From: Oceanospirillales bacterium
GTDB taxonomy: Bacteria; Pseudomonadota; Gammaproteobacteria; Xanthomonadales; SZUA-36
Length of the DNA: 40,406 nucleotides
NCBI GenBank assembly: GCA_003232965.1
Contig: QIKG01000097.1
Coordinates: forward strand, 1 to 40,406
Direction of reading: 5' to 3'
Shown: positions 1,695 to 23,716 of the stretch, piece after piece
Layout of the letters: each line of letters starts with the position of its first letter
Position numbering within the stretch: the stretch's first letter is position 1
The notes under the pieces: model-generated
Database searches by the model: none
Told to the model about the DNA's origin: nothing
What the model saw: only the letters and a program-made list of their open reading frames with translations
Program-made: the position numbers and the translations under genes

Positions 1695-2926
1695 TTGCCT
1701 CAGGCTACCAAAAGAATCCCTGGTGGGCGGCTGTACTGATCGCCGCTTATCCCATGCTGCTACCGTTTTCAAGAACAGCTGAAGTTCCACTTAGCATGTT
1801 GGCAATTACCGGCATGGTATTGCTCTGGCGACAGGGGCGCGCCATCAAACACTGGCCTAGCTCACGCGCCTTGCTACTGGTATTTTTATGTATGTGGCTA
1901 CCAATGGTGGTGTCCTCAGTAGATGCCTTTAATCCCTCTGGCTCCTGGTATCACAGCCTGGTGTCCCTGCGCTTTTTCTTTGCAGCTTTAGCCATGGCCT
2001 GGTTGTCCCGTTTCAGTGCGGTACGCGAACGTGCCATGCTATTAATATCCTTAGTGCTGGGTTTTTGGGTGGTCGACAGCCTGATACAGTTTATTTTCGG
2101 GGTGGATTTGCTCGGCTTCCCGAACACGGCTGACCGCCTCAATGGCCCTTTCGGCATGCGGCATTTTCGGCTCGGTATGATCCTTGCTGTATTTTCACCG
2201 ATTTTATTCGAACAGGTACGCCGCAGTTGGGGCGGTTACGGCCTGCTACTGGTCATACCGTTAACCGTTTTTGTGGTGATTCTCAGCGGGGTGCGCTCAG
2301 GCTGGGTGATCATCGCCTTGGCCGTGCCATTGTTTTTGTTTTGGGCCGCACGGCGAAATAACTGGCCGCTATTGCCTCTCAGCGCGATCACCACTGTCGG
2401 TGCTATTTTGCTGCTAAGTCTGGCCTGGGTGAGTTCACCATTGGTTCAGGAACGCATGGAGCTCAGCATGGGCCTGGGCTCCGGTGATATACAGACCACC
2501 GACCACGCCTTATCCAACCGCATACCTATCTGGGAGACATCACTGCGAATATTTAAAGCCTACCCGTTGGTTGGCGTTGGCATTGATAGTTATCGTGAAG
2601 CTTATGTGGTTTATGCAGCAGATGATGACCCGCATGTAGCTACTAATGGCATTGGTGGCTATCATGCACACAACCTGATTCTAGAGGTTCTGTCAGCTAC
2701 CGGCTTGCTTGGTCTGCTTGGATTAATCTTGGCCAGCCGCATTATGTATCGCCTATGGCAACAGGCAGATGCCGCTTCACGCCAGTCTATGCTGCCGTTT
2801 GCGCTGGCATTGGTGCTACTGATGTTGCCGTTTAATTCGCACTTCTCTCACTATGGTACTTTCCTGTCCTCAGTCAGTTGGTGGTTGCTCGGGCTATGGA
2901 TGGGTGCCTTCCGCCGGCGCGAATAA
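1691..2926 (+). CDS. waaL: O-antigen ligase (WaaL/Wzy_C family) membrane protein
   Basis: Polytopic hydrophobic protein with a ligase-type loop: RIPIWETSLRIFKAYPLVGVGIDSY...GGYHAHNLILEVLSATGLLGL. The ATG at 1691 overlaps the upstream TGA (ATGA); the track ORF starts at TTG 1685. Confidence 0.8.
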   Translation: MIASGYQKNPWWAAVLIAAYPMLLPFSRTAEVPLSMLAITGMVLLWRQGRAIKHWPSSRALLLVFLCMWLPMVVSSVDAFNPSGSWYHSLVSLRFFFAALAMAWLSRFSAVRERAMLLISLVLGFWVVDSLIQFIFGVDLLGFPNTADRLNGPFGMRHFRLGMILAVFSPILFEQVRRSWGGYGLLLVIPLTVFVVILSGVRSGWVIIALAVPLFLFWAARRNNWPLLPLSAITTVGAILLLSLAWVSSPLVQERMELSMGLGSGDIQTTDHALSNRIPIWETSLRIFKAYPLVGVGIDSYREAYVVYAADDDPHVATNGIGGYHAHNLILEVLSATGLLGLLGLILASRIMYRLWQQADAASRQSMLPFALALVLLMLPFNSHFSHYGTFLSSVSWWLLGLWMGAFRRRE

Positions 2927-7192: not shown

Positions 7193-7207
7193 CTGTTTTG
7201 CCTTGAC

Positions 7208-9615: not shown

Positions 9616-10269
9616 ATGAATGTAGAACAAATAACCGAAACGATTCGGGGTTATCAAAAAGACGGAAAGAGACTGTTTGCAAGCTCCTCTTTCCAAACTC
9701 ATAGCATCCCCCTGTTACACATAATTAGCCAAATTGATCGCTCCATTCCAGTCATATTTATCAATACAGGTTATTTGTTCCCTGCAACATTAATATTTCG
9801 TGACCAGGTGGCTAAATCACTAGGGCTTACCATCATCAATGTATCATCGGTTGTCTCGCGCAATTTACAAAGGGATGGAACTGGAAACCTTTTTTTCACC
9901 TCCGACCCAGACCGGTGCTGCTATTTGAACAAAACCCAGCCAATGGAGCCAGTTCTTACAGAATATGATATCTGGATTAACGGTATTCGTGCTGACCAAA
10001 ATGCCAATCGCAATAAAATGAGCGTAGAACAAGATGGCGCCTTTAACTGCAAGCGATTTCACCCACTTCTTGACTGGGATAACCGGATGGTTTATCGCTA
10101 TATTAATCAGCACAAGCTCCCCCGACACCCACTGGATGACCAGGGGTATTTAAGTATTGGTTGTGAGCCTTGTACTCGAAAATTAGATATGACAAACGAT
10201 CGCGACGGACGCTGGTTCGGTTTAAATAAAACCGAATGTGGCCTGCATACTGACCTGGTGAGCAAATAA
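9616..10269 (+). CDS. cysH: adenylylsulfate (APS) reductase-type CysH family protein (Fe-S cysteine pairs present)
   Basis: SSSFQTHSIPLLHIISQIDRSIPVIFINTGYLFPAT parallels CysH. It carries the cysteine pairs DRCCYLNKTQP and SIGCEPCT plus a C-terminal TECGLH, which is the pattern of Fe-S APS reductases rather than E. coli-type PAPS reductase. Confidence 0.85.
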   Translation: MNVEQITETIRGYQKDGKRLFASSSFQTHSIPLLHIISQIDRSIPVIFINTGYLFPATLIFRDQVAKSLGLTIINVSSVVSRNLQRDGTGNLFFTSDPDRCCYLNKTQPMEPVLTEYDIWINGIRADQNANRNKMSVEQDGAFNCKRFHPLLDWDNRMVYRYINQHKLPRHPLDDQGYLSIGCEPCTRKLDMTNDRDGRWFGLNKTECGLHTDLVSK

Positions 10270-11186
10270 TGAAAATACTAATTACCGGCGGCGCAGGTTA
10301 TGTTGGAACCGTACTCAGCTATCAACTGGAAAATATCGCTGATATAGAAGAAATTATCATTTATGACAATTTACACCGCGGTAACTACAACCTGTTTATT
10401 GGCAGTAGCAAGTTAAAGAAAAAGTTAAGCTTTGTTGCAGGGGATATTCTTGATACCCGCAAACTGAAGCAGGCTCTTGAAGGTGTCGACATCGTTTATC
10501 ATTTAGCCGCAACTGTAACCACGCCCTTTGCTGACCAGGACCCGCATTTTTTTGAACAAATCAATCACTGGGGAACCGCTGAGTTAGTTAACGCCGTAGA
10601 AAAGAGCGGTGTCAAAAAATTCATTTATCTCAGCAGTGCATCTGTCTATGGAGATACTGCTGAAGAAGTTGATATAAATACCCCGGCAAATCCGATAACT
10701 TTCTACAGCATCTCAAAAATGCGTGGTGAAGAGCATGTCAGCAGATTGTCTGAATTAAAAATTGATACCTATATTTTTCGTTGCGCTAATGTGTATGGTT
10801 ATAGTAAAAGCATGCGATTTAATTCAGTCATCAACCGGTTTATGTTCAACGCAAACTTCACAAACCGCATCACCATTAACGGGAATGGTGAACAGCAGCG
10901 TTCGTTTATTCATATTGAAAAAGCTGCTTCTACCCTAGCCAGCCTTGTAAATACAAATTTAGTGGGTGGAAAATACAACCTCACAGAAAATATACTCTCT
11001 ATTAATGACATTGCTGACACGCTAAAGGAAGTTTATTCAAACCTAGAATATCTTTATATAAATCAGCAGCTTAATCTACATCAGCTCAAATTAAAGCCTG
11101 ACCCTGTTGTTAATGCGATGTCCAATACCAAAACACCAAGCCTGAAAGAATCACTTGAAATTTTTAAAAAGGCATTTACTTTTTAG
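10269..11186 (+). CDS. NAD-dependent epimerase/dehydratase (extended SDR)
   Basis: Motifs MKILITGGAGYVGTVL and YSISK (YxxxK). Its start overlaps the cysH stop (TAATG). Confidence 0.8.
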   Translation: MKILITGGAGYVGTVLSYQLENIADIEEIIIYDNLHRGNYNLFIGSSKLKKKLSFVAGDILDTRKLKQALEGVDIVYHLAATVTTPFADQDPHFFEQINHWGTAELVNAVEKSGVKKFIYLSSASVYGDTAEEVDINTPANPITFYSISKMRGEEHVSRLSELKIDTYIFRCANVYGYSKSMRFNSVINRFMFNANFTNRITINGNGEQQRSFIHIEKAASTLASLVNTNLVGGKYNLTENILSINDIADTLKEVYSNLEYLYINQQLNLHQLKLKPDPVVNAMSNTKTPSLKESLEIFKKAFTF

Positions 11187-11263: not shown

Positions 11264-11959
11264 TCAGTTTTTAATAAATTGCTTATAGGCACTAACAACT
11301 TCCTCAGTCTCACCAATCATCTTGATTTTTCCTTGATCTAGCCATAGTGCGCGCTCACAAAGTTTTAGTATCTGATTCATGGAATGAGAAACCAGAACAA
11401 CCGTTTGTTTTGAGTTAATTTTATCCAGCATGGCCTTATTAGCTTTCAGCTTAAATTTACCATCACCTACACCGAGAACTTCGTCAATCAGCAAAAGCTC
11501 TGATCTCATTTTCAGCGCCACTGAAAACCCAAGCCGGGCACGCATGCCGCTTGAGTAGGTTTTAATCGGATTGTCAATAAAATCTTCGAGCTCTGAAAAC
11601 TCAATAATTTCATCAAGCATGGCAAGCACTTCTCGTTTACGGGCTCCCAAAAACATGCCACTAATAATCGCATTGTCCCTACCGGACAGCTCAGGATCAA
11701 AGCCTAAGGCTAAAGACAGTAGGGCAACCTGCTTGCAGTGCCAGCTAACTGTGCCGCTATCGACCTCATAAATATTGGCCAACACCCTTAACAAAGTAGA
11801 TTTACCACAACCATTAGAGCCCAAAACACCCAGTGTTTCACCTCTTTTTATGGTAAAACTCACATCCTCAAGGGCTGCAAAATAATCATGCCGAAAAAAG
11901 GAACGGCGGGTTCTGTATTGAACCCCAACATTATGCAATTCCATCACATTATTGTTCAC
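11264..11959 (-). CDS. wzt: polysaccharide/O-antigen export ABC transporter ATP-binding protein (Wzt/KpsT-like, NBD only)
   Basis: Walker A GSNGCGKST, signature YSSGMRARLGF and Walker B LLLIDEVL are present. It is only 231 aa, so it has no C-terminal carbohydrate-binding extension. The GTG start overlaps the wzm stop (GTGA). Confidence 0.85.
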   Translation of the reverse strand: MNNNVMELHNVGVQYRTRRSFFRHDYFAALEDVSFTIKRGETLGVLGSNGCGKSTLLRVLANIYEVDSGTVSWHCKQVALLSLALGFDPELSGRDNAIISGMFLGARKREVLAMLDEIIEFSELEDFIDNPIKTYSSGMRARLGFSVALKMRSELLLIDEVLGVGDGKFKLKANKAMLDKINSKQTVVLVSHSMNQILKLCERALWLDQGKIKMIGETEEVVSAYKQFIKN

Positions 11960-12732
11960 TGTGCTATCAACCGCGCATAATTAGTTTCTGTTTTTCGGTA
12001 ATACCATGTCATAGCGATAATTAAAACCAAACTACCAAGGCAAATCAAACCCAGTGCAGACCAGTCAGGGAGAACATTATCCATTAGCACCTGTCGATAG
12101 TTTTTAATTAGGTTAGCTATAGGGTTCATCAAAAATAGGCGCTGATGATCCGGGTGAATAACATCTGTATAACTATAAAATATTCCTGAGCCTAGCATCA
12201 GGGCCATTAATCCCGTAGAAACCAAATATCGAAAATCAGGAATATAGGGCGTCACTGCCGCCACCAACATCGCAACCGCAAAAGTTAACAAAAACTGAGT
12301 TAATATCACAAAAATTATACTAAGCCAGACCCAGGAAATATCAAGCCCATAGAGATACAAAAAACCAAACATAAACGCAAACACCACTGTTTGCTTGAAA
12401 GCATCCTGAAATACAACCAATAGCGGAAAGAAAGGCATTGGAATAGACACTTGGTTAATCAGACCGCGACCTGCAGTGATCGAGCCAGTCGCATTGCCAA
12501 TGCTACGGGAAAACCACGAAAAAGGGATTCTTCCACAGATCAGAAAAATTAAAAAATTTGATGTCCTTGTTTCCAGAAAAACACCGAAAACCAGATAGAG
12601 TACCGCCACCATCAAGGCAGGCTCCAATAACCACCAAATATAACTAAGGTAGGTTTTTGAGGCCTCAGATTTTAAATTGAACACCAACTTGGTGAAGAAC
12701 ACCTCAACGAGGTGTGCTCTAGATATAAACAT
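11956..12732 (-). CDS. wzm: polysaccharide/O-antigen export ABC-2 permease (Wzm/KpsM-like)
   Basis: 258-aa protein with about six hydrophobic spans, immediately upstream of and overlapping the ATPase gene. The N-terminus YLSYIWWLLEPALMV is typical of the ABC-2 family. Confidence 0.85.
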   Translation of the reverse strand: MFISRAHLVEVFFTKLVFNLKSEASKTYLSYIWWLLEPALMVAVLYLVFGVFLETRTSNFLIFLICGRIPFSWFSRSIGNATGSITAGRGLINQVSIPMPFFPLLVVFQDAFKQTVVFAFMFGFLYLYGLDISWVWLSIIFVILTQFLLTFAVAMLVAAVTPYIPDFRYLVSTGLMALMLGSGIFYSYTDVIHPDHQRLFLMNPIANLIKNYRQVLMDNVLPDWSALGLICLGSLVLIIAMTWYYRKTETNYARLIAQ

Positions 12733-12852
12733 TCTTATTCACTAATGTGACCGCACAATTTGCATTGTAACACTTTCGCACTCACCGGTAATTGTTGGAT
12801 CAAGGTCAGGCTTTGAGTGCCGCTTCTTTAATGTATGATAGGCACCTAATCG

Positions 12853-12886: not shown

Positions 12887-12963
12887 TGTGCCCTCTTGCT
12901 CATCAACAAGAGCTTGTTTCAACAAAGCCTGCCTGTGCAGCCTTACATGCAAAGTGGTGTCAG

Positions 12964-14559: not shown

Positions 14560-14619
14560 GTAAAAAGCTGTATACTTACCGGTTAAGTATTCAAAAAAAT
14601 ACATTGGGGATCCTTTAGG

Positions 14620-15648
14620 ATGAAGAATTTTTTATCAAATAAACGCGTCTTGGTTACGGGCGTTTGTGGTACTGTCGGCAGAGAAATTACGCGGATGTTA
14701 CTATCTGGTGACTTTGGCGAACTGGCTGAATTAATTGGTATCGATAACAACGAATCCGAATTATTTTTTGTGGCCCAAGAATTTAACCAGCCCAGCGCTC
14801 AGTTTTTTCTACGAGACCTAAGAGATTACCCGGGTTTACAGGAGGTTTGCCAAAATGTTGATGTTGTTTTCCATGCTGCTGCACTTAAACATGTGGGTAT
14901 TTGCGAACTTTCACCCAGTGAGGCGGTGCAAACCAACATCATAGGCCTTCAAAATTTGATTAATGCCGCTAAAAGATGCCGAGTCGAGCATTTCATTTTT
15001 ACCAGTTCCGATAAAGCGGTTAACCCTACCAATGTAATGGGAACATCTAAGTTAATGGGCGAGCGTTTGGTTACCGCGGCGAACAATTCACGCGAAAACC
15101 AGGGCACCATTTTTGCATCTACACGGTTTGGTAATGTGCTGGGTTCGCGGGGTTCAGTAGTGCCAATATTTCACGACCAAATACTTCAAGGCAAAGATAT
15201 AACCTTAACCAGCCCTGAAATGACACGATTTATTATGTCTATCAGCGAGGCAGCCGACCTTGTCATTGCTTCTGCTGCCGAGGCCAAGGGCGGGGAAGTT
15301 TTTATTACCAAAATGCCGGTTATCCGTATTCAGGATCTTGCTGAAGTAATGGTAGATATGCTGGTGGAAGAGCACTCGCTACCAAAACGGTCAAACATTA
15401 TCGAAATTGGCGTCAAGCCCGGCGAAAAGCTCTATGAAGAACTAATGAGCGATGAAGAAACCGCCCGTGCATTGGAAACAGAGCCGTATTTTGTAGTGTT
15501 GCCGGCGTTCCGGGATATGTACGATATCGACTATAGTTATAACAATGAAGTCGCTAACGCTCTGCTTAAGCCGTATAAATCATCTGAAGAAAAAATGCTT
15601 AGCCAGGCTGAATTAAAAGACTACTTACAAAAGTTTAATATTGTTTAA
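14620..15648 (+). CDS. nucleotide-sugar 4,6-dehydratase/epimerase of the Polysacc_synt_2 family (PseB/CapD/FnlA-like)
   Basis: Motifs KRVLVTGVCGTVGREI, TSSDKAVNPTNVMGTSK and TRFGNVLGSRGSVVPIF. Confidence 0.8.
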   Translation: MKNFLSNKRVLVTGVCGTVGREITRMLLSGDFGELAELIGIDNNESELFFVAQEFNQPSAQFFLRDLRDYPGLQEVCQNVDVVFHAAALKHVGICELSPSEAVQTNIIGLQNLINAAKRCRVEHFIFTSSDKAVNPTNVMGTSKLMGERLVTAANNSRENQGTIFASTRFGNVLGSRGSVVPIFHDQILQGKDITLTSPEMTRFIMSISEAADLVIASAAEAKGGEVFITKMPVIRIQDLAEVMVDMLVEEHSLPKRSNIIEIGVKPGEKLYEELMSDEETARALETEPYFVVLPAFRDMYDIDYSYNNEVANALLKPYKSSEEKMLSQAELKDYLQKFNIV

Positions 15649-15680
15649 GATTAAAAGTCTCAAACAAAGAGGAGAATAAA

Positions 15681-16826
15681 ATGCGCGTTCTAATACTTGG
15701 GGGTGATGGTTATCTGGGCTGGCCCACCGCAATGCACTTTTCAGCCAAAGGCCACGAAGTTGCCGTGGTTGATAATTACCTGAGGCGCAACATTGCGCGC
15801 GAAACCGACAGCGGAACCCTCTACCCCACGCCTAACCTGCACGAGCGTGCAGAAATATGGGAAGATCATTCCGGTAAAAATATTTCTGTTCATATTGGTG
15901 ACCTGTGCGACTGGAATTTTATTAATTCCCTATTTGCCGAATTTAAACCCGACACCATTATTCATTACGCCGAACAACCTTCTGCTCCCTATTCAATGTT
16001 AAGTACAGCCGCAGCCCGGCTGACTCTCTCAAACAATATTGGGGTCACCGGCAATGTTGTGCTGGCGATGAAAGAACACTGCCCTGATGCTCACCTCATC
16101 AAACTGGGCACAATGGGCGAATATGGCACCCCCAATATTGATATAGAAGAAGGCTGGCTTGAAGTTGAACACAAAGGCCGCTCCCAAAAATTTCTCTACC
16201 CCCGCCAGGCAGGCAGTTTGTACCACACCACCAAAGTAATGGACACCGATCTGCTTTGGTTTTATGTGCGTACCTGGGGATTACGAGTAACCGACCTTAT
16301 GCAAGGCCCGGTATATGGCATCTTTACGGATGAAAATACCCACGACGACCGCTTGTTGCCCTGTTTTGCCTATGATGAGATATTTGGCACAGTTATCAAT
16401 CGCTTTGTTGTACAAGCCGTTGCCGGTTACCCACTAACAGTATATGGCAAAGGAGGCCAAACGCGGGGTTACCTCAATCTGAAAGACACCCTGCAATGCC
16501 TTTTACTTGCAGCAGAAAACCCAGCTGATAGCGGTGAAATGAAAATTTACAATCAACTAACTGAAACATTCTCGGTGAATGAAATTGCCGACCATGTGCA
16601 GCGTGTTGGTAAGCAGTTTGGGCTGGATGTACAAATAAAAAGCATAGAAAACCCGAGAAAAGAGTTGGAAGAACATTACTACAACCCGGCACACACCGGA
16701 CTGCTAGAGCTTGGGCTAAAACCAAACTATCTCACAGACGAGGCGCTTGGAGAAATCATCCAAAAAGTCATTCAATATAAAGATGACATTGTGCAAGACC
16801 GTATTTTCCGTGGTGTTAAGTGGTGA
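15681..16826 (+). CDS. sqdB: UDP-sulfoquinovose synthase
   Basis: Resembles SQD1/SqdB end to end (from memory). Shared motifs: MRVLILGGDGYLGWPTA, EQPSAPYSM, KLGTMGEYGTPNIDIEEG, YHTTK, LTVYGKGGQTRGYL, FSVNE and EEHYYNP. A GAGGAG ribosome-binding site precedes the ATG. Confidence 0.9.
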   Translation: MRVLILGGDGYLGWPTAMHFSAKGHEVAVVDNYLRRNIARETDSGTLYPTPNLHERAEIWEDHSGKNISVHIGDLCDWNFINSLFAEFKPDTIIHYAEQPSAPYSMLSTAAARLTLSNNIGVTGNVVLAMKEHCPDAHLIKLGTMGEYGTPNIDIEEGWLEVEHKGRSQKFLYPRQAGSLYHTTKVMDTDLLWFYVRTWGLRVTDLMQGPVYGIFTDENTHDDRLLPCFAYDEIFGTVINRFVVQAVAGYPLTVYGKGGQTRGYLNLKDTLQCLLLAAENPADSGEMKIYNQLTETFSVNEIADHVQRVGKQFGLDVQIKSIENPRKELEEHYYNPAHTGLLELGLKPNYLTDEALGEIIQKVIQYKDDIVQDRIFRGVKW

Positions 16827-17812
16827 GTAGTAAAAAATGGCTTATCACCGGAGGCTGTGGCTTTATTGGTACATCGCTAATACAACAACTACTGAAAAAC
16901 GATGCGCATACCGACATCCGAATACTGGATAACTTGTCGGTAGGTTCCGAGGAAGACCTTGCTGAAGTGGCTGAATTTAATAAAATAAGCCACCCCGATG
17001 CCCCACCTGAAGGTGTTGAGTTACTGGTTGGCGACATAACAAACGCACAAGACTGCCTAGATGCAAGCAAAGGTATCGATATTATTGTGCACCTTGCAGC
17101 CAATACCGGTGTTGGGCCTTCCGTTGAAGATCCCGAAGGGGATATGCGGGCAAATGTTATCGGCATTTTCAATATGCTGGAGGCTGCGCGGACAAATGCT
17201 GTCAATAAATTCATTTTTGCATCATCCGGCGCACCCATTGGAGAACTAAAAAACCCTCCCATACATGAGGAACTGGCAGCCCACCCAGTTTCACCTTATG
17301 GTGCAAGCAAGCTGGCGGGTGAAGGGTATTGTTCCGCCTATTACCACTCCTTTGGTATCAACACTATTGCCTTGCGGTTTGGTAATGTTTACGGGCCCAG
17401 GAGCAAACACAAAGCCAGCGTTGTTGCCAAGTTCATTAAACAGGCAATAAACGGTGAGACCTGTGAAATTTATGGTACGGGTCTGCAGACCAGGGATTTT
17501 ATTTATATACTGGATCTCGTAGATGCCATCATCAAATCCGCTCAGGTAGATATCGGTGGCGAGGTTTTCCAAATTGCCAGCAGCAAAGAGCGCACAGTCA
17601 ATGAAATCGCAAAAATTGTAGAACAAGAGCTAAAACATCATGGGACGAACCTAAAACTGAAATATGGAGAAGCCAGACCCGGCGATGTCATGAGAAATTT
17701 TTCTGATACAACCAAAGCAAAAAAAATCTTAGGTTGGCATGCGATAACAAATATCAATTATGGGATAAATAAAACAATTGAAAATTTGATAAAAAATCTT
17801 TATCCTAAATAG
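16820..17812 (+). CDS. NAD-dependent sugar-nucleotide epimerase (GalE/WbpP-like extended SDR)
   Basis: Motifs WLITGGCGFIGTSL, SPYGASKLAGE and LRFGNVYGP. The GTG starts at 16820/16823 overlap the sqdB stop codon (16824-16826). Confidence 0.8.
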   Translation: MVSSKKWLITGGCGFIGTSLIQQLLKNDAHTDIRILDNLSVGSEEDLAEVAEFNKISHPDAPPEGVELLVGDITNAQDCLDASKGIDIIVHLAANTGVGPSVEDPEGDMRANVIGIFNMLEAARTNAVNKFIFASSGAPIGELKNPPIHEELAAHPVSPYGASKLAGEGYCSAYYHSFGINTIALRFGNVYGPRSKHKASVVAKFIKQAINGETCEIYGTGLQTRDFIYILDLVDAIIKSAQVDIGGEVFQIASSKERTVNEIAKIVEQELKHHGTNLKLKYGEARPGDVMRNFSDTTKAKKILGWHAITNINYGINKTIENLIKNLYPK

Positions 17813-17863
17813 CTTAAATAAAATTAGCTAATCACACATATATATTATAAAAGGTAGCGAAAC

Positions 17864-19684
17864 ATGAAGTATTCATCAGACGGCGCTAGTATGAATCTTG
17901 CTGCTGCCCCTTATTCAGGTGCATTTTTTAAAAACGTTCATTTCTGGACACCACCAGTATCAACCATAAAACCTAGGAAGAAAAAACCTAACTCCTCTCT
18001 ACGAATGGCTGGGATTGTAAGCAAAAGATTATATGAAGGCCTAAAATATGAGGGCAAGTTATTCCTACTAACACCAAATAACTGGGGCGAGATTTTGCAG
18101 TATGGAAAGCTCGACTTACTTATTGTCGAGTCATGTTGGGAAACTGCAACTGGTGATTGGTATCTGTCACAAGTTACCATTAATGAACAAACAGCACTTT
18201 TAGTAAAATTAATACGGTTGGCTAAAAAACTTTCTATACCATGCGTCTTCTGGAATACTAAAGATCATCTATACCACAGTCATTATGAAGACTTTGCAAA
18301 ACAATTCGATTATATTTTTTGTGCTGATCCTAATGTTGTTGAGTCATTACGAAAACAGCACATAAAAGCAAATATACTCCTTCCCGCAATCCAGCCTGCA
18401 CTCCATAATGCTTTTAGAGAACATGGGGATACCAACGAATTTGAACTCGGTATCCTATTTGATGGCTGGGTAGATCTGATACGCCATTCGGAAAAGCTGC
18501 AAGTACTAAGCATATTGAAAAAATATGGGTTAGCAATAATTGAGTCTAAAGGACGACTGTTACGAGGGAAAATAGATGAACTCCCAGAGTATTCCAGTTC
18601 AATTCTCGGTTGTGTGACAAATGAAATAAGAAGAGTCTGTCTGAAATACGCAAAAACTGCGTTAACATTTGATGTGAGTACTTTTAGTAGCACAGAGCAA
18701 CAATGGAGAGCTCTTGAAATGGCGGGTTTTCGCCTACCGGTGCTGTACAGGGGAAAGTTACCAGATGGTGATATACGGAAAAATATCGTAGATGAGCAAA
18801 TGACAGATAAGGCCCTGATACAAAGGCTTAATCATTTTAAAAACAATGATTTAGATAGGAAAAAAATCGGACACCTTGCTTGGCGTGAGGTCTACAGTAA
18901 CCATACCTTTTCCCATCGCTTACAGTCTATCTGCATGGAGCTAGGGGTTTTTCATGATTGGATTGAGTTTCCTGCAATTAGCATGATTACACCTACCTTT
19001 CGTGTAGAACTGCTAACACGTTGCATCGAGACATTTGAAAAGCAGTCATACCCAAATAAAGATTTAGTTCTTGTCATTAATAGCAATAGACAAGACTTAC
19101 CAGGAGTTGGTGACCTAGTTTCTGACAAAGAGGACATTCAAGTAATACAGATGCCACAAGAGTGTTTCGTGGGTGGTTGCTTGAATATAGGGAATGCTAT
19201 AGCAAAAGGAGAATACTGTCTAAGAGTTGATGATGATGACTTCTATGGTAAATATTGTATTTCTGATATTTCACTTCATTTAAAATCAATAGATATAGAC
19301 TTATTCGGCAAACCGACTCCTTACTTTTTTTTTGAGGGTGACGAATGTGTGTATGAACGACCATTCAGGGTGCCTGATCTGACTATCATTCCGCCAAATG
19401 AACTCGAAGACTGGACCACACATGTTGCTGGTAACCTACTAGGTGGCAAGAGAGAATTTCTTCTTTCCACAGGTTACCCAGATAACGCTTTCGCAGCTGC
19501 CGATAGTAGCTTCTTATATTCTTTGAGTGAAAAAGAGTTTAATTACTGTTGTTTGGATAGTGCTAATATGGTCATTTATCGAGGTTTGAATTTACAGAGC
19601 CATACTTGGAGGCTACCTAAGCATCGTATTCTTGATAATGCAACCGCGCTTGATCAAGAAACACCAAGCGATATGATGTATTAA
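17864..19684 (+). CDS. bifunctional glycosyltransferase (CgeB/DUF3880-like N-domain plus GT2 C-domain)
   Basis: The N-domain has LDLLIVESCWETATGDWYLSQV..IPCVFWNTKDHLYHSHYEDFAKQFDYIFCAD, a CgeB-like GT pattern (from memory). The C-domain has ISMITPTFRVELLTRCIETFEKQSYPNKDLVLVINSN and RVDDDDFYG, typical of GT2. Confidence 0.7.
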   Translation: MKYSSDGASMNLAAAPYSGAFFKNVHFWTPPVSTIKPRKKKPNSSLRMAGIVSKRLYEGLKYEGKLFLLTPNNWGEILQYGKLDLLIVESCWETATGDWYLSQVTINEQTALLVKLIRLAKKLSIPCVFWNTKDHLYHSHYEDFAKQFDYIFCADPNVVESLRKQHIKANILLPAIQPALHNAFREHGDTNEFELGILFDGWVDLIRHSEKLQVLSILKKYGLAIIESKGRLLRGKIDELPEYSSSILGCVTNEIRRVCLKYAKTALTFDVSTFSSTEQQWRALEMAGFRLPVLYRGKLPDGDIRKNIVDEQMTDKALIQRLNHFKNNDLDRKKIGHLAWREVYSNHTFSHRLQSICMELGVFHDWIEFPAISMITPTFRVELLTRCIETFEKQSYPNKDLVLVINSNRQDLPGVGDLVSDKEDIQVIQMPQECFVGGCLNIGNAIAKGEYCLRVDDDDFYGKYCISDISLHLKSIDIDLFGKPTPYFFFEGDECVYERPFRVPDLTIIPPNELEDWTTHVAGNLLGGKREFLLSTGYPDNAFAAADSSFLYSLSEKEFNYCCLDSANMVIYRGLNLQSHTWRLPKHRILDNATALDQETPSDMMY

Positions 19685-19705
19685 ATGTGACAAATTACTT
19701 ATAAA

Positions 19706-20821
19706 ATGAAAATTATATACATAACTAGGGCAGCCTTTGGTTTGTTAGGTGGCGCAGACAGCTATCTTATACCTACATATGCAAATAAAAAGTGCGATGT
19801 TACGGTCCTATCAAACTTCATACCCCATTCTAAAGAGAAAGTTGTTTTTAGTTGCCCAGATCTCGAAATTCATGATGTATATTCCCGCAATACTACAGAA
19901 AGAGTTTTGAAGGTCTTAAATCATATATATAAAATAAAGCCGGATATTATACATATCTTCCACGGGCCTGATTGCTTAAGATACCCATATTTGCTACGAG
20001 GGTTAACCCCAAATGTTAAATGGGTATTAGATTTTCGATCCCCGCCTGTAACAAAAAACCGTACAGAACTTAACAAAGTGTTGTGGCGCTACTTTTTATG
20101 TCAATTTTATTATGACCAAATCCTGACTCACTCAAAGTTAACAATTAAGGATAATTTGCCTTTTCGTTTTAAAAGATTTATCGAGCTACCCCTAGGGGTT
20201 GAGTTAGCAAAAATTCCATTTGCAAATATCGGCAAACTAAAGCCTGTGAAGTTTGTATATATTGGAAGTGTAACAAAATCACGTCAACTTTTTTTACTGG
20301 TCGAATCATTTGCAAAATTCGCAGCCAACACTGAAGCAAGAGTTACTTTAGATATAATTGGTGATGGGAATGCAGTTGGTCCAATCAATGAACTAATATC
20401 TTCTAAGAAAATTAATAACCATGTGCAATTAAAAGGGTTTTTACCTCAACATGAAATTTATAAAATCATGCAAAATTATGATGTTGGAATAGCGTATGTA
20501 CCTTATGATAAATTTACAAGAGCACCATCCTTAAAATCCTTGGAATATGCTGCAGCAGGCTTACCTGTTCTAGCTTCTGATACTAAAGGACATAAAGACT
20601 TTGTTAATCGGTTTGGTTTTAAATTCGATCTTTTTAAAAACTCATCTAACGGGATCATAGATGCTTTTGAATGCTTTCTTAAAGATGGTGTATCACACAC
20701 TAAAATTAACAATAATCTTAAAGTAGTTAAAACCTTTGACTGGGAAAATCTTATTGAGAATATTCTTATACCAACATATACGAAATTATTGAAAACTCAC
20801 CATAACCTAACAAAGAAGTGA
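19706..20821 (+). CDS. glycosyltransferase family 4
   Basis: FVYIGSVTKSRQL and LEYAAAGLPVLASDTKGHKDFV form a GT4 C-terminal Rossmann/EX7E-like region. Confidence 0.8.
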   Translation: MKIIYITRAAFGLLGGADSYLIPTYANKKCDVTVLSNFIPHSKEKVVFSCPDLEIHDVYSRNTTERVLKVLNHIYKIKPDIIHIFHGPDCLRYPYLLRGLTPNVKWVLDFRSPPVTKNRTELNKVLWRYFLCQFYYDQILTHSKLTIKDNLPFRFKRFIELPLGVELAKIPFANIGKLKPVKFVYIGSVTKSRQLFLLVESFAKFAANTEARVTLDIIGDGNAVGPINELISSKKINNHVQLKGFLPQHEIYKIMQNYDVGIAYVPYDKFTRAPSLKSLEYAAAGLPVLASDTKGHKDFVNRFGFKFDLFKNSSNGIIDAFECFLKDGVSHTKINNNLKVVKTFDWENLIENILIPTYTKLLKTHHNLTKK

Positions 20822-20911
20822 TATCCTCCCAGCAACCATTAGCCCAGAGCAGGAACAGGTCATGGTCCCTATTTTTGAAATAGGTTAATAATCAGGGGAA
20901 TACAGATACAG

Positions 20912-21062
20912 ATAATGGTAAGTTTAATAGCAAATGGAGCGCAGTATTTAAAGACGTTAAAAAAACTAAATTACAATCAATAAACCTAAATATGAGCTTG
21001 ATAAATCACGATATGAGAACCACAAATTAGACCTACAAGCGAAAACGAGGCTAAAGAATTAG
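20912..21062 (+). repeat. decayed partial duplicate of the 5' part of the downstream coiled-coil ORF
   Basis: 20932-20940 equals 21121-21129 (AAATGGAGC). 20994-21030 matches 21205-21241 at 32 of 37 nt (GAGCTTGA..ATGAGAACCACAAATTAG). The offsets are 189 and 211 nt, so indels break the frame, and the copy carries several stops. Confidence 0.6.
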
Positions 21063-21081
21063 AAAGCCCTTAAAGTCTCGA

Positions 21082-21720
21082 TTGAAATCACTAAAGACAG
21101 AAAATGGCAACCGGTATAAAAAATGGAGCAGAGTGGTGAAAGAGATTAAAGAAACAGATTTAGAAAAAGCACAAATCCAATTGCAATCAAGAGTACTTAA
21201 AAAAGAGCTTGAGGAATATCGAGATGAGAACCACAAATTAGTCAAATATACAGAGGACTTGTCAAGCTCTTTAAAAAATATAGTCAAAGAATATAAATAC
21301 GAATACTTACTATTAGTAGAACAGTCTGATCGGGTTACATTTGACAATCAGAGATTGACTGAGAAACTAAATAATAGACTGCATGAAATATCTGAACTCC
21401 ACGTTTTGCTTGAAAACACTACAGTAGCATCTCAGTCCTTTCAAAATACCTCTACTATACGAATAAAAAAGATTGCTAAATTACAACAAAACCAACGTGA
21501 GTTAATCAGCAAGATCAAAACCTTACAATCTAAAAATGGAAACAAAGAAAATAGAATTATTCAAAAAGAAAAAGCAATCTTACAATTACAAACTTCATCA
21601 TCCATAAGGATTGGGCAAACATTTGTACAAGCTCTAAGTCAACCTGGGAAGAAAACAATTTTCTTCCCATACTATTTTCTTAAAGCCGTTTTTGAGGCAG
21701 CTTTTGTACATGAAAGGTAA
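21082..21720 (+). CDS. coiled-coil protein of unknown function with a hydrophobic/amphipathic C-terminal tail
   Basis: 212-aa Lys/Glu/Gln-rich heptad-like sequence with a TTG start (the start is uncertain; GTG at 21133 is an alternative). The tail is SSSIRIGQTFVQALSQPGKKTIFFPYYFLKAVF. No family was recognised. Confidence 0.45.
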   Translation: MKSLKTENGNRYKKWSRVVKEIKETDLEKAQIQLQSRVLKKELEEYRDENHKLVKYTEDLSSSLKNIVKEYKYEYLLLVEQSDRVTFDNQRLTEKLNNRLHEISELHVLLENTTVASQSFQNTSTIRIKKIAKLQQNQRELISKIKTLQSKNGNKENRIIQKEKAILQLQTSSSIRIGQTFVQALSQPGKKTIFFPYYFLKAVFEAAFVHER

Positions 21721-21883
21721 GCTAAGCATCTTTGCAGTACCTATTCCCCATTAGTTGTATGATTGATAGAGCTGTAATTCAACCACAGGTCAGATTAATA
21801 CCTAGGAACCCAACACGCTGTCAAGATGGTTGATAGTTTGACTAGGTAATCACAGACATAGGATATTAACGGAAGTTAAATTA

Positions 21884-23569
21884 ATGAAAAGCATGGCAAA
21901 TAGAAAAGCAATTATTGTCATTGGGTCCGGTCGCAGCGGGACCTCTCTGGTAATGCAAGTTTTAAACTACTTAGGGGTTAGCCCCCTGGGGAAATTGCTC
22001 AAAGGAGATGTTAGCAATCCAAAAGGATTTTTCGAAGATACACGAATTCTTGAAATTCATAGGAGGCTCCTTAAATCTATCCAGCCACATACAAGTTTAC
22101 CGCTTTTGCCAGGTTGGTTAAGCAGCCCTGAAGCTGCGGAAGCTAAAGCAGCTTTAATAGGACATATCCATTCCAAAATTGATAATAAACAAACATTTGC
22201 TGTAAAAGACCCGCGTACATCTCTGCTGATTCCCCTCTGGCGTGAAGTATTAGTAAGTTTCAGTATTGAGCCTGTTTTTGTGATGAGTTATCGCGATCCC
22301 ACTATGGTATTTGAGTCCATGCAAAAATACAATAGTAAACCAGATGATTGGGGTCAGGGTTTATGGGATACACGCATTGTACACTCTGTCGTTGATACAG
22401 ATTGCAAATTCTTACCCATTAATTATGACCATTGGTTTGATTCCCCCACTGAAGTCATTTTAGCTCTTGCGAAAGCATGTGGCATTCGTCAGAACGCCAA
22501 AGTTAATGCCTTAATACAACAGCCAGACCTGATTATTAAATCTGATCTTAAACGCTCATTAAACAGCAGTGTTTATCAGCAAAAAGTTCCCAGTCATTCA
22601 CAAAAAATGTATGCATTAATACAAGCCTTTCAAAAAAACAAAGACTACTGCAAGGACTTATTAAATTATTGTGTTTATTTCAAAGAGTTTTATGATTCCT
22701 TAGTGTATGTTTCTTCCAGCTTTTCTAAACTTGAGAGTGAAAGAAACGAGGGGATAAAGCCTAGCCAACTGCTTGAGCAAATTGTCGCAGAGAGAGAAGC
22801 CATATTAACCACCCAAAAAGCAAGAAAACTGGAACACAAAGCTTTTCTTGCCAGTCTGGAAGAATTGCGTAAAAATCAGGGCAGCCTCAAAACTGAAATA
22901 CAGGGCGTTAGCCATCAGGGTCAGTCGCTCGATGGCATTGCCACTTTATTGCAACAACGCCTTGAGCTTGAAAAAACCGAAGGCCACAAAGTCAGCCAAC
23001 TGCTTGAGCAAATTGTTGCAGACAAAGAAGCCATCTTAACCACTCAAAAACAACGGGCACTGGAACACGAAGCTTTTCTTGCCAGCTTGGAAGAATTGCG
23101 TAAAAACCAGGGCAGCTTAAAAGCAGAAATTCAAAGCCTCTCACATCAAGGTAGCTCACTAAATAAAATCATTAATCTGCTTCAGAAACGCTTTGAGCAT
23201 GATAGAGAGGAAGAGCACAAATCCAGTCAGTTACTTGAGCAACTTTTAAACGATAAAGATGTCTCATTGAATGCCCTCAACCAAAGAACCGAAGAGCAAA
23301 GCAAAATGATCTCAACGCTACAAACAGGGAATATTAACAAGGACAGTGAGATATCCTTTCTACAGAAAGAGATAGAACGACTCAATAAACAAAATACTGG
23401 GATTAAAACTAAGAACATCAACTATCGTGAACGAAATAAAAATTATCGTGAAAAAGAGAAATATCACAGTGCGCGAATGGCTGAGCTTCGTTATCGCTTA
23501 ACCACCACACAAAAAAAGTTATCTGCGCTCGAAAACCAGTCCGTAATTAATAAAATCTTTAGAAAATGA
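21884..23569 (+). CDS. sulfotransferase domain fused to a long C-terminal coiled coil
   Basis: The N-domain has a 5'-PSB-like IIVIGSGRSGTSLV and a 3'-PB-like SYRDPTMVFESM. From residue 294 onward it is continuous Lys/Glu/Gln/Leu-rich heptad-like sequence, including two 77-aa repeats. Confidence 0.75.
   Translation: MKSMANRKAIIVIGSGRSGTSLVMQVLNYLGVSPLGKLLKGDVSNPKGFFEDTRILEIHRRLLKSIQPHTSLPLLPGWLSSPEAAEAKAALIGHIHSKIDNKQTFAVKDPRTSLLIPLWREVLVSFSIEPVFVMSYRDPTMVFESMQKYNSKPDDWGQGLWDTRIVHSVVDTDCKFLPINYDHWFDSPTEVILALAKACGIRQNAKVNALIQQPDLIIKSDLKRSLNSSVYQQKVPSHSQKMYALIQAFQKNKDYCKDLLNYCVYFKEFYDSLVYVSSSFSKLESERNEGIKPSQLLEQIVAEREAILTTQKARKLEHKAFLASLEELRKNQGSLKTEIQGVSHQGQSLDGIATLLQQRLELEKTEGHKVSQLLEQIVADKEAILTTQKQRALEHEAFLASLEELRKNQGSLKAEIQSLSHQGSSLNKIINLLQKRFEHDREEEHKSSQLLEQLLNDKDVSLNALNQRTEEQSKMISTLQTGNINKDSEISFLQKEIERLNKQNTGIKTKNINYRERNKNYREKEKYHSARMAELRYRLTTTQKKLSALENQSVINKIFRK
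22763..23455 (+). repeat. in-frame tandem repeat, period 231 nt (77 codons): two well-conserved units plus a diverged third
   Basis: Units start at 22763, 22994 and 23225. Units 1 and 2 begin AGCCAACTGCTTGAGCAAATTGT and are close to identical by eye over the first ~130 nt. Unit 3 begins AGTCAGTTACTTGAGCAACTT. Confidence 0.85.
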
Positions 23570-23661
23570 CTTCTATCTGAAATTATTACTTGAATACAAT
23601 AAAAATTATATTATAAATGAAAAAGCCGATGCTTCTTACTGGTATGTCAAGGACTTATACG

Positions 23662-23690
23662 AGATCACTTAATGTGATCTTTTATCTTCT
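23662..23690 (+). terminator. candidate intrinsic terminator after the sulfotransferase-coiled-coil gene
   Basis: AGATCAC-ttaat-GTGATCT hairpin (7 bp) followed by TTTTATCTTCT. The stem has only 3 GC pairs. Confidence 0.35.
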
Positions 23691-23716
23691 CAACAACAGA
23701 TTTTGAGACTGCGTTT

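What the first reader, a model, noticed from the sequence alone, without database searches (positions are those of the whole stretch)
21884..23569. Sulfotransferase fused to a ~270-residue coiled coil built from 231-nt tandem repeats: candidate WbdD-like chain terminator and molecular ruler that caps with sulfate
**What the sequence shows.** The N-terminal ~270 aa carry sulfotransferase PAPS-binding motifs (GSGRSGTSL; SYRDPTMVFESM). The rest of the protein (residues ~294-561) is uninterrupted heptad-like Lys/Glu/Gln/Leu sequence. It contains two 77-aa units (DNA 22763-22993 and 22994-23224) that are close to identical by eye over their first ~130 nt. A third, diverged unit starts at 23225. Since 77 = 11 x 7, each duplication preserves heptad phase. 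At about 0.15 nm rise per residue, each unit would add about 11 nm of rod.

**Comparison with known systems.** In ABC-transporter O-antigen pathways, chain length is set by terminators carrying a coiled-coil ruler. Examples are WbdD (kinase/methyltransferase) and WbbB (Kdo transferase). A sulfotransferase in that architecture, inside a wzm/wzt locus, suggests a sulfate cap and a ruler recently lengthened by duplication.

**Caveat.** The Wzt here is NBD-only (231 aa). It lacks the cap-binding module that normally accompanies terminator systems.
Basis: partly seen in the sequence, partly recalled or inferred. Interest (0 to 1): 0.85.

Follow-up and report, generated by a model that had tools for sequence, protein, structure and literature searches.

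The report
Sulfotransferase on a coiled-coil stalk
This gene fuses a sulfate-adding enzyme to a long helical stalk inside an O-antigen-type sugar-polymer locus; it belongs to a large unnamed family built like the known "molecular ruler" enzymes that cap such polymers and set their length, which suggests, without proving, a new kind of cap made of sulfate.

Summary
Gene 21884-23569 (561 aa) has an N-terminal sulfotransferase domain and a ~270-residue heptad-periodic, all-helical tail. The tail holds two 231-nt (77-aa) tandem units, 74.5% identical in DNA, plus a third that is alike only at its start.

**For:**
- The N-domain founds a very large, unnamed family (31,069 cluster representatives). 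Almost all of the 150 best matches are N-terminal sulfotransferase plus a variable helical tail.
- About half of these end in a conserved C-terminal motif that I read as a membrane anchor.
- Relatives sit directly upstream of wzm-wzt.
- In Vibrio mimicus and two metagenome loci, the domain heads WbbB-like sulfotransferase / coiled coil / glycosyltransferase giants, next to a Wzt carrying the Wzt_C cap-binding module.

**Against, or not shown:**
- The window's Wzt is NBD-only.
- The window protein lacks the anchor motif, which sits on a separate 212-aa coiled-coil ORF just upstream.
- The duplication is not recent: a 70%-identical ortholog has the same three units at the same spacing.
- Three other sulfotransferases in the window leave in-chain sulfation open.
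- No sulfate cap or length effect is demonstrated anywhere.

Verdict: new variant of a known kind. About 50% confidence for the terminator role.

The parts
21884..23569 (+). ST-CC gene, 561 aa: N-terminal sulfotransferase plus C-terminal coiled-coil tail.
21884..22738 (+). Sulfotransferase domain (residues 1-285). It carries 5'-PSB G14-x-G-R17-S-G-T20, N45-P-x-G48-x-x-E51, K108-D-P110, and 3'-PB R137...S145.
   Evidence: Invariant columns. Profile hits to TPST1/2, CurM ST and OLS ST at E about 5e-6. AF2 pLDDT 85.6. Top Foldseek hits are nearly all sulfotransferases. Pfam PF13469 scores only 17.5 bits against a cut-off of 27 for this protein, but homologs pass the cut-off.
22760..23566 (+). Heptad-periodic helical tail (residues 293-561).
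   Evidence: 3.5-residue periodicity, 0 of 500 shuffles reach it. AF2 helices 293-344, 349-437 and 444-560 at pLDDT 45-70.
22763..22993 (+). Repeat unit 1 (77 aa = 11 heptads).
22994..23224 (+). Repeat unit 2. It is 74.5% nt and 72.7% aa identical to unit 1.
23225..23455 (+). Diverged third unit. Only its first ~12-20 residues resemble units 1 and 2.
   Evidence: Its position is conserved in the ortholog.
21082..21720 (+). cc212: a stand-alone 212-aa coiled-coil protein (TTG start) ending in the family's C-terminal anchor-like motif (SSSIRIGQTFVQALSQPGKKTIFFPYYFLKAVFE). It is a candidate membrane-anchor partner.
   Evidence: 40.5% identity over 227 aa to the C-terminal tail of the full ST-CC-anchor protein P0069, E 6e-44. 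Anchor HMM 69 bits. A counterpart lies in the ortholog locus, L001 7370-7981.
11956..12732 (-). wzm (ABC-2 permease).
   Evidence: Only 20-27% identical to the Wzm that travels with the cassette elsewhere.
11264..11959 (-). wzt, NBD-only, 231 aa.
17864..19684 (+). Dual-module glycosyltransferase (Glyco_trans_1_2-like plus GT2), candidate polymerase. It is conserved next to ST-CC genes.
   Evidence: Homologs score 490-750 bits in L010, L021, L044 and L047.
19706..20821 (+). GT1-family glycosyltransferase of the conserved cassette.
16820..17812 (+). NAD-dependent epimerase/dehydratase. In relatives this gene sits directly upstream of the ST-CC gene.
14620..16826 (+). CapD/FnlA-like (14620-15648) and a second epimerase-family gene (15681-16826). 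These are sugar-nucleotide genes of the cassette.
9616..11186 (+). PAPS_reduct-family gene (9616-10269) and an epimerase (10269-11186). The same pair occurs in the Arhodomonas cassette L010.
1685..2926 (+). O-antigen ligase family (Wzy_C) gene. It places the locus in an LPS context.

Best explanation
**What it is.** The gene encodes a cytoplasmic, PAPS-dependent glycan sulfotransferase. Its catalytic head sits at the N-terminal end of a ~270-residue alpha-helical coiled coil. It is a core part of a conserved ABC-transporter-dependent (Wzm/Wzt) polysaccharide assembly cassette. In this window that cassette is probably an LPS O-polysaccharide cassette.

**Most likely mechanism (inferred).**
1. 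The stalk oligomerises and is tied to the inner membrane and to the polymerising glycosyltransferases (17864-19684 and 19706-20821).
2. In most family members the tie is an intrinsic C-terminal anchor motif. Here it is probably the separately encoded coiled-coil/anchor protein cc212 (21082-21720).
3. The head is held tens of nanometres from the membrane and sulfates the non-reducing end of the undecaprenyl-linked chain once the chain is long enough to reach it.
4. This stops elongation before Wzm/Wzt export and ligation.
5. In this way it works like WbdD/WbbB, with sulfate in place of methyl, methyl-phosphate or Kdo.

**Shown.**
- Sulfotransferase identity of the head.
- Heptad-periodic helical tail with two 77-aa units.
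- Locus context.
- Family architecture and gene neighbourhoods.

**Inferred.**
- Oligomeric coiled coil.
- Membrane tethering through cc212.
- Terminal rather than in-chain acceptor.
- Length control.
For: **Head.**
- Homologs pass the Pfam Sulfotransfer_3 threshold.
- The family profile hits TPST1/2, CurM ST and OLS ST.
- The 5'-PSB, 3'-PB and KDP residues are invariant.
- The AF2 model has pLDDT 85.6. Its top Foldseek hits are almost all sulfotransferases.

**Tail.** 3.5-residue periodicity, with 0 of 500 shuffles reaching it. The tail is predicted all-helical.

**Locus.** wzm/wzt, at least seven glycosyltransferase genes, sugar-nucleotide genes, a WaaL-like gene and LpxL/M.

**Family.**
- 31,069 representatives at E<=1e-3.
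- In 153 of the 155 proteins analysed (the 150 best plus the first hits), the ST domain is N-terminal. The median tail is 165 aa.
- 68 of 155 carry the anchor-like motif, 61 of them at the very C-terminus.

**Conserved cassette.** The dual GT, GT1, epimerase and ST-CC recur in L010, L021, L044, L045, L047 and L048. ST-CC lies immediately upstream of wzm-wzt in L002, L010 and L125.

**WbbB-like fusions.**
- ST / heptad repeats / SxSW[RK]LT motif / WbsX-GT1-GT2 proteins of 1454 and 1512 aa lie directly after a Wzt with Wzt_C (100 bits) in L106 and L117.
- Vibrio mimicus has ST-CC-GT2-GT2 (1073 aa) beside a Wzt_C-bearing Wzt, with cysN-, cysC- and cysD-type genes and a sulfate transporter nearby.

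**Tail length and its evolution.**
- Tail lengths range from ~50 to over 450 aa.
- 33 of 116 long tails have internal repeats. 18 of these 33 have offsets that are multiples of 7, against about 4.7 expected by chance.
- The exact 77-aa spacing is kept in the ortholog.

**Literature.** An extended coiled coil with the terminating enzyme at its distal end is described as the characteristic marker of the polymerase-terminator strategy (PMC11231755).
Against: - The window's Wzt is NBD-only. In all characterised terminated O-polysaccharides, Wzt carries a cap-binding CBM (PMC11231755).
- The window protein and its ortholog lack the family's anchor motif. Pairing with cc212 is untested, and cc212 is poorly conserved outside its last ~50 residues.
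- Three further sulfotransferase genes lie in the window. Known bacterial sulfated polysaccharides carry in-chain sulfate (PMC11766843; PMC3210612). An in-chain role is therefore a live alternative.
- Confidence in the tail model is low (pLDDT 45-70, monomer only).
- The window's Wzm is a different lineage from the one usually linked to the cassette.
- No chemical structure with a terminal sulfate was found in the searchable literature.
Confidence: 0.5

Rival explanations
1. **In-chain modifier on a scaffold.** The enzyme sulfates internal residues of the growing polymer. The coiled coil only oligomerises it and docks it into the membrane-associated assembly complex. It neither terminates chains nor measures them. 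Chain length is set by the coupling of polymerisation to export, as in systems with NBD-only Wzt.
For: - The Wzt is NBD-only.
- Known bacterial sulfated polysaccharides made by ABC-transporter pathways carry in-chain sulfate.
- Coiled-coil proteins also act as scaffolds for complex assembly (PMC11231755).
- The family includes fusions directly to Glyphos_transf polymerases (P0117, P0124).
Against: - Three stand-alone sulfotransferases without stalks are already in the window and could do in-chain sulfation.
- The ST head is almost always at the end of the stalk that lies away from the anchor or the GT modules. That geometry suits a terminator and is unnecessary for an in-chain modifier.
- Relatives sit beside a Wzt with Wzt_C or another large extra domain.
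Confidence: 0.35
2. **Non-glycan acceptor.** The head sulfates a protein tyrosine, as TPST or Xanthomonas RaxST do, or a lipid or glycolipid. The glycan-locus position would then be incidental.
For: The best solved-structure matches by sequence profile are tyrosylprotein sulfotransferases. The closest relative comes from a Lysobacterales/Xanthomonadales genome.
Against: - No peptide-substrate gene or type I secretion genes were seen among the window ORFs scanned; they are glycan or LPS genes or have no Pfam match.
- Family members are covalently fused to GT2, GT1, WbsX and Glyphos_transf modules.
- The gene travels with a conserved GT / sugar-nucleotide cassette.
- Foldseek ranks the polyketide and Stf-type sulfotransferases equally high.
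Confidence: 0.07
3. **Scaffold only.** The sulfotransferase head is catalytically inactive, and the protein serves purely as a structural stalk or adaptor.
For: The protein itself scores below the Pfam gathering threshold (17.5 against 27 bits).
Against: All PAPS-binding and TPST-like catalytic positions (R17, S18, T20, E51, K108, R137, S145) are invariant in the family, including this protein. The equivalence of these positions to the TPST catalytic residues rests on my knowledge of TPST2. Between the two orthologs, the head (about 73% aa) is at least as conserved as the tail (about 68%).
Confidence: 0.05

Closest known systems
WbdD (E. coli O9a/O8, K. pneumoniae O3/O5): chain terminator with a coiled-coil molecular ruler
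   Same: - A non-glycosyltransferase modifying head lies at the N-terminus.
- An extended coiled coil follows it.
- At family level, a C-terminal membrane-proximal motif ends the protein.
- It is encoded with wzm/wzt and a separate multi-module polymerase.
   Different: - The head is a PAPS sulfotransferase, not a kinase/methyltransferase, and shares no sequence homology with WbdD.
- In the window the anchor motif is on a separate small protein.
- The Wzt has no CBM.
- The predicted stalk (~270 residues) is about twice the length I recall for WbdD's coiled coil (from memory, not checked here).
WbbB (K. pneumoniae O12, Raoultella terrigena) and K. pneumoniae O7 ORF6: terminator / coiled coil / polymerase GT modules in one polypeptide
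   Same: Relatives of the window protein have exactly this layout, with the sulfotransferase in the terminator position and a Wzt_C-bearing Wzt next door. Examples are L106, L117, Vibrio mimicus P0229 and P0061.
   Different: The window protein itself carries no GT modules. The cap chemistry would be sulfate rather than beta-Kdo or methyl-phosphate.
Bacterial carbohydrate sulfotransferases of Pfam Sulfotransfer_3 (for example NodH, and the stand-alone STs of sulfated capsule loci such as Cobetia)
   Same: They share the PAPS-binding motifs, the fold and the location in glycan loci.
   Different: Those enzymes are stand-alone, ~250-320 aa proteins that sulfate internal or defined positions. None is described with a coiled-coil stalk or a terminator role.

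Membership tests
PAPS-dependent sulfotransferase superfamily (Pfam Sulfotransfer_3, PF13469) | 5'-phosphosulfate-binding loop (GxxRSGT[ST]) | tested here: met
   G14-S-G-R17-S-G-T20-S. G14, G16, R17, S18, G19 and T20 are invariant in 9 homologs.
PAPS-dependent sulfotransferase superfamily (Pfam Sulfotransfer_3, PF13469) | 3'-phosphate-binding motif (R ... S, eight residues apart) | tested here: met
   R137 and S145 in YRDPTMVFES are invariant. They align to the same motif in TPST1.
PAPS-dependent sulfotransferase superfamily (Pfam Sulfotransfer_3, PF13469) | Score above the Pfam gathering threshold | tested here: not met
   17.5 bits against a cut-off of 27 for the window protein. Homologs P0003, P0004, P0005 and P0007 score 31.5-37.7 bits and pass. 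P0003 matches the window protein at E 3.6e-34.
PAPS-dependent sulfotransferase superfamily (Pfam Sulfotransfer_3, PF13469) | Sulfotransferase fold | tested here: met
   AF2 pLDDT 85.6, pTM 0.86. Foldseek top hits are 4gox, 4gbm, 3ap3 and 2zq5, at E from 2e-5 and TM 0.44-0.52. Nearly all of the top 50 are sulfotransferases.
PAPS-dependent sulfotransferase superfamily (Pfam Sulfotransfer_3, PF13469) | PAPS binding and sulfate transfer | not testable with these tools
   This needs biochemistry.
Coiled-coil chain terminators of ABC-transporter-dependent glycan assembly (WbdD/WbbB type) | Encoded in a wzm/wzt glycan locus | tested here: met
   wzm is at 11956-12732 and wzt at 11264-11959. The gene lies 9 kb away in the divergent GT gene row. 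Relatives are adjacent to wzm-wzt.
Coiled-coil chain terminators of ABC-transporter-dependent glycan assembly (WbdD/WbbB type) | Non-polymerising modifying enzyme at the distal (N-terminal) end of an extended coiled coil | tested here: met
   The ST head is residues 1-285 and the tail 293-561. The tail has 3.5-residue periodicity and is predicted helical. Oligomeric state is not tested and pLDDT is low.
Coiled-coil chain terminators of ABC-transporter-dependent glycan assembly (WbdD/WbbB type) | Membrane-proximal C-terminal region (amphipathic anchor or polymerase docking), or polymerase modules in cis | tested here: not met
   The anchor HMM does not hit the window protein or its ortholog. 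It does hit the adjacent cc212 (69 bits) and 68 of 155 family members. The window protein has no GT module.
Coiled-coil chain terminators of ABC-transporter-dependent glycan assembly (WbdD/WbbB type) | Wzt with a cap-binding module | tested here: not met
   The window Wzt is 231 aa and NBD-only. The feature is met in relatives L106, L117 and L124 (Wzt_C). A different N-terminal extension occurs in L002, L021 and L125.
Coiled-coil chain terminators of ABC-transporter-dependent glycan assembly (WbdD/WbbB type) | Terminal cap on the glycan, and chain length dependent on stalk length | not testable with these tools
   This needs NMR or MS of the polymer and stalk-length mutants.
Coiled-coil chain terminators of ABC-transporter-dependent glycan assembly (WbdD/WbbB type) | Sequence homology to the WbdD or WbbB catalytic domains | tested here: not met
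   The only family and structure matches of the head are sulfotransferases. The resemblance to WbdD/WbbB is architectural only.

The most novel reading that the evidence does not exclude
Sulfate is a previously unrecognised chain-terminating cap for ABC-transporter-dependent bacterial glycans. The cap is installed by a very large, unnamed family of sulfotransferase / coiled-coil 'ruler' proteins.
- Their stalks grow and shrink by duplications in heptad multiples.
- They are read by Wzt_C modules or by a new N-terminal Wzt domain.
- In this window the ruler is split into a catalytic stalk and a separate anchor-bearing coiled-coil partner (cc212).
Probability: 0.4. Interest if true: 0.8.

Novelty: new variant of a known kind. 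Interest (0 to 1): 0.65.

Why it matters
**If the terminator reading is right.**
- The known terminators in this pathway add methyl, methyl-phosphate or Kdo. A sulfate cap would add a new chemistry to the polymerase-terminator/ruler model.
- The family is far larger than the handful of studied terminators: thousands of 50%-identity clusters across Proteobacteria, Desulfobacterota, cyanobacteria, Firmicutes and others.

**What it makes testable.**
- How NBD-only transporters deal with capped chains.
- Whether a ruler can be assembled from two polypeptides.
- Whether the new N-terminal Wzt domain reads a sulfated terminus.

**If only the rival is right.** The family still defines a widespread, uncharacterised class of stalk-mounted glycan sulfotransferases. 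That is relevant to sulfated bacterial polysaccharides and to glycoengineering.

Tried and rejected
**Searches that found nothing or too little.**
- Sequence search of the N-domain alone against PDB found only noise. The family profile was needed.
- The word-indexed homolog search found just 9 relatives and made the protein look like an orphan. The exhaustive HMM search overturned that.
- A genome-collection scan with the 9-sequence alignment failed for lack of a conserved stretch. It was redone with 4 sequences.
- The Whitfield 2020 review and Williams 2017 paper could not be read because they are not held.
- Literature searches for a sulfotransferase terminator or a terminal sulfate returned nothing relevant.
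- The Wzt N-terminal extension has no PDB sequence match.

**Ideas rejected.**
- *Recent duplication:* rejected by the ortholog comparison.
- *cc212 or the target is a frameshifted fragment of one gene:* rejected. cc212 lies upstream of the target, there is no ST remnant in 20500-21900, no anchor remnant lies after the stop codon, and the split is conserved in the ortholog.
- *The 528-aa and 500-aa unknown ORFs are a detached cap reader:* no ORF in the window resembles the L002/L021 Wzt extension.

**Technical failures and limits.**
- A BLAST-based internal-repeat screen gave no hits for technical reasons. It was replaced by a direct offset scan.
- A homo- or hetero-oligomer structure prediction could not be run.
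Full report
**1. Observation**

The ORF 21884-23569 (+) encodes 561 aa.

*Tandem repeat.*
- Tandem Repeats Finder reports one array in the region: period 231, 2.1 copies, 75% matches, score 527, at 22756-23242. The repeat finder gives two 231-nt copies at 74%.
They differ at 18 synonymous and 21 non-synonymous codons.
- Identity is 86% over the first 135 nt and 58% over the last 96 nt. The longest in-register exact run is 23 nt. 'Close to identical' is therefore too strong.
- The third 'unit' (23225-23455) is only 40-43% (nt) and 17-23% (aa) identical. It resembles the others just at its start.

*Tail.*
- Hydrophobic residues in 286-561 show a sharp periodicity at exactly 3.5 residues (power 3.12). 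None of 500 shuffles reaches it, and the N-domain has no such peak.
- A monomer AlphaFold2 model makes 293-560 three long helices, with breaks at 345-348 and 438-443. Confidence is low, pLDDT 45-70.
- There are 10 Gly and several register shifts. The tail is heptad-like and helical but not strictly uninterrupted.

**2. The head is a sulfotransferase**

- The protein itself is below the Pfam threshold: PF13469 scores 17.5 bits against a cut-off of 27.
- It matches P0003 at E 3.6e-34. P0003, P0004, P0005 and P0007 pass the threshold.
- An alignment of nine N-domains has these invariant positions: G14, G16, R17, S18, G19, T20, N45, P46, G48, E51, K108, D109, P110, R137, S145. These form the 5'-PSB loop, a KDP motif and the 3'-PB R...S pair.
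- The profile of that alignment hits tyrosylprotein sulfotransferases 1 and 2, the CurM sulfotransferase and the olefin-synthase sulfotransferase in PDB, at E from 5e-6. The KDP and RDxxxxxxS motifs align.
- The AF2 model of residues 1-284 is confident (pLDDT 85.6, pTM 0.86). Its Foldseek matches are almost exclusively sulfotransferases, with TM 0.44-0.52 for the best.
- That these positions correspond to catalytic residues of TPST2 (R78, E99, K158, R183, S191) is from my own knowledge, not tested here.

**3. Surroundings in the window**

| Coordinates | Content |
|---|---|
| 597-9365 | GT4, an O-antigen-ligase-family gene (1685-2926), a GT2, a lipid A acyltransferase, ugd, fcl-like and gmd |
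| 9616-11186 | A PAPS_reduct-family gene and an epimerase |
| 11264-12732 (-) | wzt (231 aa, NBD only) and wzm |
| 12964-24610 (+) | A row of glycosyltransferase and sugar-nucleotide genes that ends with cc212 (21082-21720), the target, and a GT10-like gene |
| 29064-32783 | A 1239-aa Glyphos_transf+GT2 protein |
| 32796-33494, 35840-36802, 37001-37639 | Three more sulfotransferases |

This is an LPS / O-polysaccharide-type locus for a glycan that is probably sulfated at several positions.

**4. A large hidden family**

- The word-indexed search found only nine relatives. An exhaustive HMM search with the N-domain profile found 31,069 representatives at E<=1e-3 and 4,331 at E<=1e-30.
- I analysed 155 proteins: the best 150 plus the first hits. 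The sulfotransferase domain is N-terminal in 153 of them. 116 have a tail of at least 100 aa, and the median tail is 165 aa.
- 68 of 155 carry a conserved motif, SxS[YF]R[LI]Gxx[FV]xxAxxKPGKNT[IL]LLPFRL[IL]KL. In 61 of them it lies within 40 residues of the C-terminus. I interpret this as a membrane-proximal anchor or docking element. That is inference from its position and hydrophobic character.
- Source names are only 'hypothetical protein', 'sulfotransferase family protein', 'glycosyltransferase' or coiled-coil artefacts.

**5. Neighbourhoods and fusions**

*Conserved cassette.* A cassette surrounds ST-CC genes in Arhodomonas (L010), a Chromatiales MAG (L021) and several metagenome contigs (L044, L045, L047, L048).
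- It includes a homolog of the dual glycosyltransferase 17864-19684 (490-750 bits), often the GT1 19706-20821, and the epimerase 16820-17812 directly upstream of the ST-CC gene.
- In L010 it also includes the CapD-like and epimerase genes and the PAPS_reduct/epimerase pair.

*Position relative to the transporter.* The ST-CC gene is immediately followed by wzm-wzt in L002, L010 and L125.

*Three transporter types accompany the family.*
- NBD-only: the window and L010.
- Wzt with a homologous ~400-470-aa N-terminal extension of unknown fold: L002, L021 and L125.
- Wzt with the classical Wzt_C cap-binding module: L106, L117 and Vibrio mimicus L124.

*WbbB layout in the last group.* There the sulfotransferase is the N-terminal module of 1073-1512-aa proteins. 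It is followed by a short coiled coil (in L106, LAERDAQ x6), an SxSW[RK]LTxP[LV]R motif, and two or three glycosyltransferase modules.
- This is the layout of WbbB, with the sulfotransferase in the terminator position.
- The V. mimicus locus also carries cysN-, cysC- and cysD-type genes and a sulfate transporter.

*Other fusions.* ST-CC-GT2, ST-GT1 and ST-Glyphos_transf.

**6. What is special about the window copy**

- The protein and its only close relative lack the anchor motif. That relative is P0002, 70% identity, from a Lysobacterales MAG.
- Instead, the ORF just upstream (cc212, 212 aa, TTG start) is a coiled-coil protein ending in that motif.
  - It is 40.5% identical over 227 aa to the C-terminal tail of the full-length family member P0069 (E 6e-44), and 38.6% over 184 aa to P0077.
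  - It scores 69 bits with the anchor HMM.
- The ortholog locus has the same split. Its small protein conserves only the last ~50 residues well (34% over 120 aa) and has its own 28-aa repeat.
- No ST remnant lies upstream of cc212, and no anchor remnant lies after the target's stop codon.
- I therefore propose that the stalk and the anchor are on two polypeptides here and pair through their coiled coils. This is untested.

**7. Age and meaning of the repeats**

- The ortholog has the three units at identical 77-aa spacing: residues 306/383/460 against 295/372/449.
- In the 3' 96 nt of each unit, W1 is closer to X1 (67%) than to W2 (58%), and W2 is closer to X2 (62%).
- In the 5' 135 nt, the two window units are closer to each other (86%) than to their orthologs (75-81%).
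- The duplication therefore predates the split of two lineages whose proteins are 70% identical. The first halves have since been homogenised or are more constrained. 'Recently lengthened' is not supported, while exact length conservation fits a length-sensitive element.
- Across the family, 33 of 116 long tails have internal repeats. 18 of these 33 offsets are multiples of seven, against about 4.7 expected. They include another 77-aa repeat in P0069.
- Heptad-preserving duplication is thus a recurrent way these stalks change length.

**8. Mechanism**

- The framework comes from the literature. [quoted passage not shown]
- The coiled-coil protein is also a membrane-associated scaffold. In all characterised cases, a CBM on Wzt reads the cap (PMC11231755).
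- The ST-CC family reproduces every architectural element of that scheme. In some relatives it also has the CBM-bearing Wzt.
- The best explanation for the window gene is therefore a sulfotransferase terminator/ruler (confidence about 0.5).
- The main rival (0.35) is an in-chain sulfotransferase docked by its coiled coil. It is favoured by the NBD-only Wzt and by the fact that known bacterial sulfated polysaccharides carry in-chain sulfate.
- A protein or lipid acceptor, or a dead enzyme, is unlikely.

**9. Novelty**

- I found no description of a sulfotransferase terminator, a terminal sulfate cap, or this family in the searchable literature. Two key reviews could not be read, so prior mention cannot be excluded.
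- By architecture, the protein works like WbdD/WbbB. It is not a member by homology, and two defining features fail in the window copy: an anchor in cis and a CBM on Wzt.
- I rate it a new variant of a known kind, with interest 0.65.

Noticed in passing
window 21082-21720 (+): A stand-alone 212-aa coiled-coil ORF (TTG start, no internal Met) ends in the family's C-terminal anchor-like motif. It is homologous to the tail of full-length ST-CC-anchor proteins (P0069, P0077). The target gene next to it lacks the motif. The split is conserved in the Lysobacterales ortholog locus (L001 7370-7981).
   Followed up: partly
L002 5528-7639; L021 841-2718; L125 12210-14213: Wzt proteins of 625-703 aa carry a homologous ~400-470-aa N-terminal extension before the NBD. 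L002 and L125 are 46% identical over ~700 aa, and L002 and L021 match at E 1e-31. The extension has no significant Pfam hit and no PDB sequence match. These Wzt lie next to ST-CC-anchor genes and could carry an unrecognised substrate- or cap-reading domain.
   Followed up: partly
L106 8501-14359; L117 7838-14527; L124 (Vibrio mimicus GCA_000176415.1) 7905-13222: A Wzt with the Wzt_C module lies directly upstream of giant ST / coiled coil / SxSW[RK]LTxP[LV]R / multi-GT proteins (WbbB-like). In L106 the coiled coil is a perfect heptad array, LAERDAQ x6. The V. mimicus locus also has an extra stand-alone ST, cysN/cysC/cysD-type genes and a sulfate transporter.
   Followed up: partly
window 29064-32783 (+), C-terminal ~110 residues: The 1239-aa Glyphos_transf+GT2 protein ends in two weak copies of the same anchor-like motif (DYGYRLGSIFVDILKRPILIFLLPFRL and SAAHRLGVAILETFSISPGKIIKLPGKI). 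It is followed by a 232-aa sulfotransferase. A similar pair, Glyphos_transf/GT2 followed by an ST, occurs in the high-GC locus L007.
   Followed up: partly
window 32796-33494 (+), 35840-36802 (+), 37001-37639 (-): Three further sulfotransferase genes lie in the window: a weak Sulfotransfer_3 hit, a Sulfotransfer_3 hit at 105 bits, and Sulfotransfer_2. With the target this makes four, so the product is probably multiply sulfated.
   Followed up: no
window 9616-11186 (+); L010 16392-18016 (-): A 217-aa PAPS_reduct-family gene paired with an epimerase sits beside wzt. The same pair is in the Arhodomonas cassette (258 and 211 bits). Its role is unclear; it could be PAPS metabolism or something else.
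   Followed up: no
window 11956-12732 (-): The window's Wzm is only 20-27% identical to the Wzm proteins that accompany the ST-CC cassette elsewhere, which are 39-56% identical to each other. The cassette here may therefore be combined with a different transporter lineage.
   Followed up: partly
window 23420-23461 (+): A 21-nt tandem mini-duplication encodes NYRERNK/NYREKEK, one heptad each, near the end of the tail.
   Followed up: no
window 24680-26266 (-) and 26343-27845 (-): Two unassigned genes lie downstream. One is a 528-aa multi-pass membrane protein with a soluble C-terminal domain and no Pfam hit. By eye it contains a GDHG-type motif reminiscent of alkaline-phosphatase-superfamily transferases; this was not tested. 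The other is a 500-aa protein with an unknown ~300-aa N-terminal part and a C-terminal SAM-methyltransferase domain.
   Followed up: no
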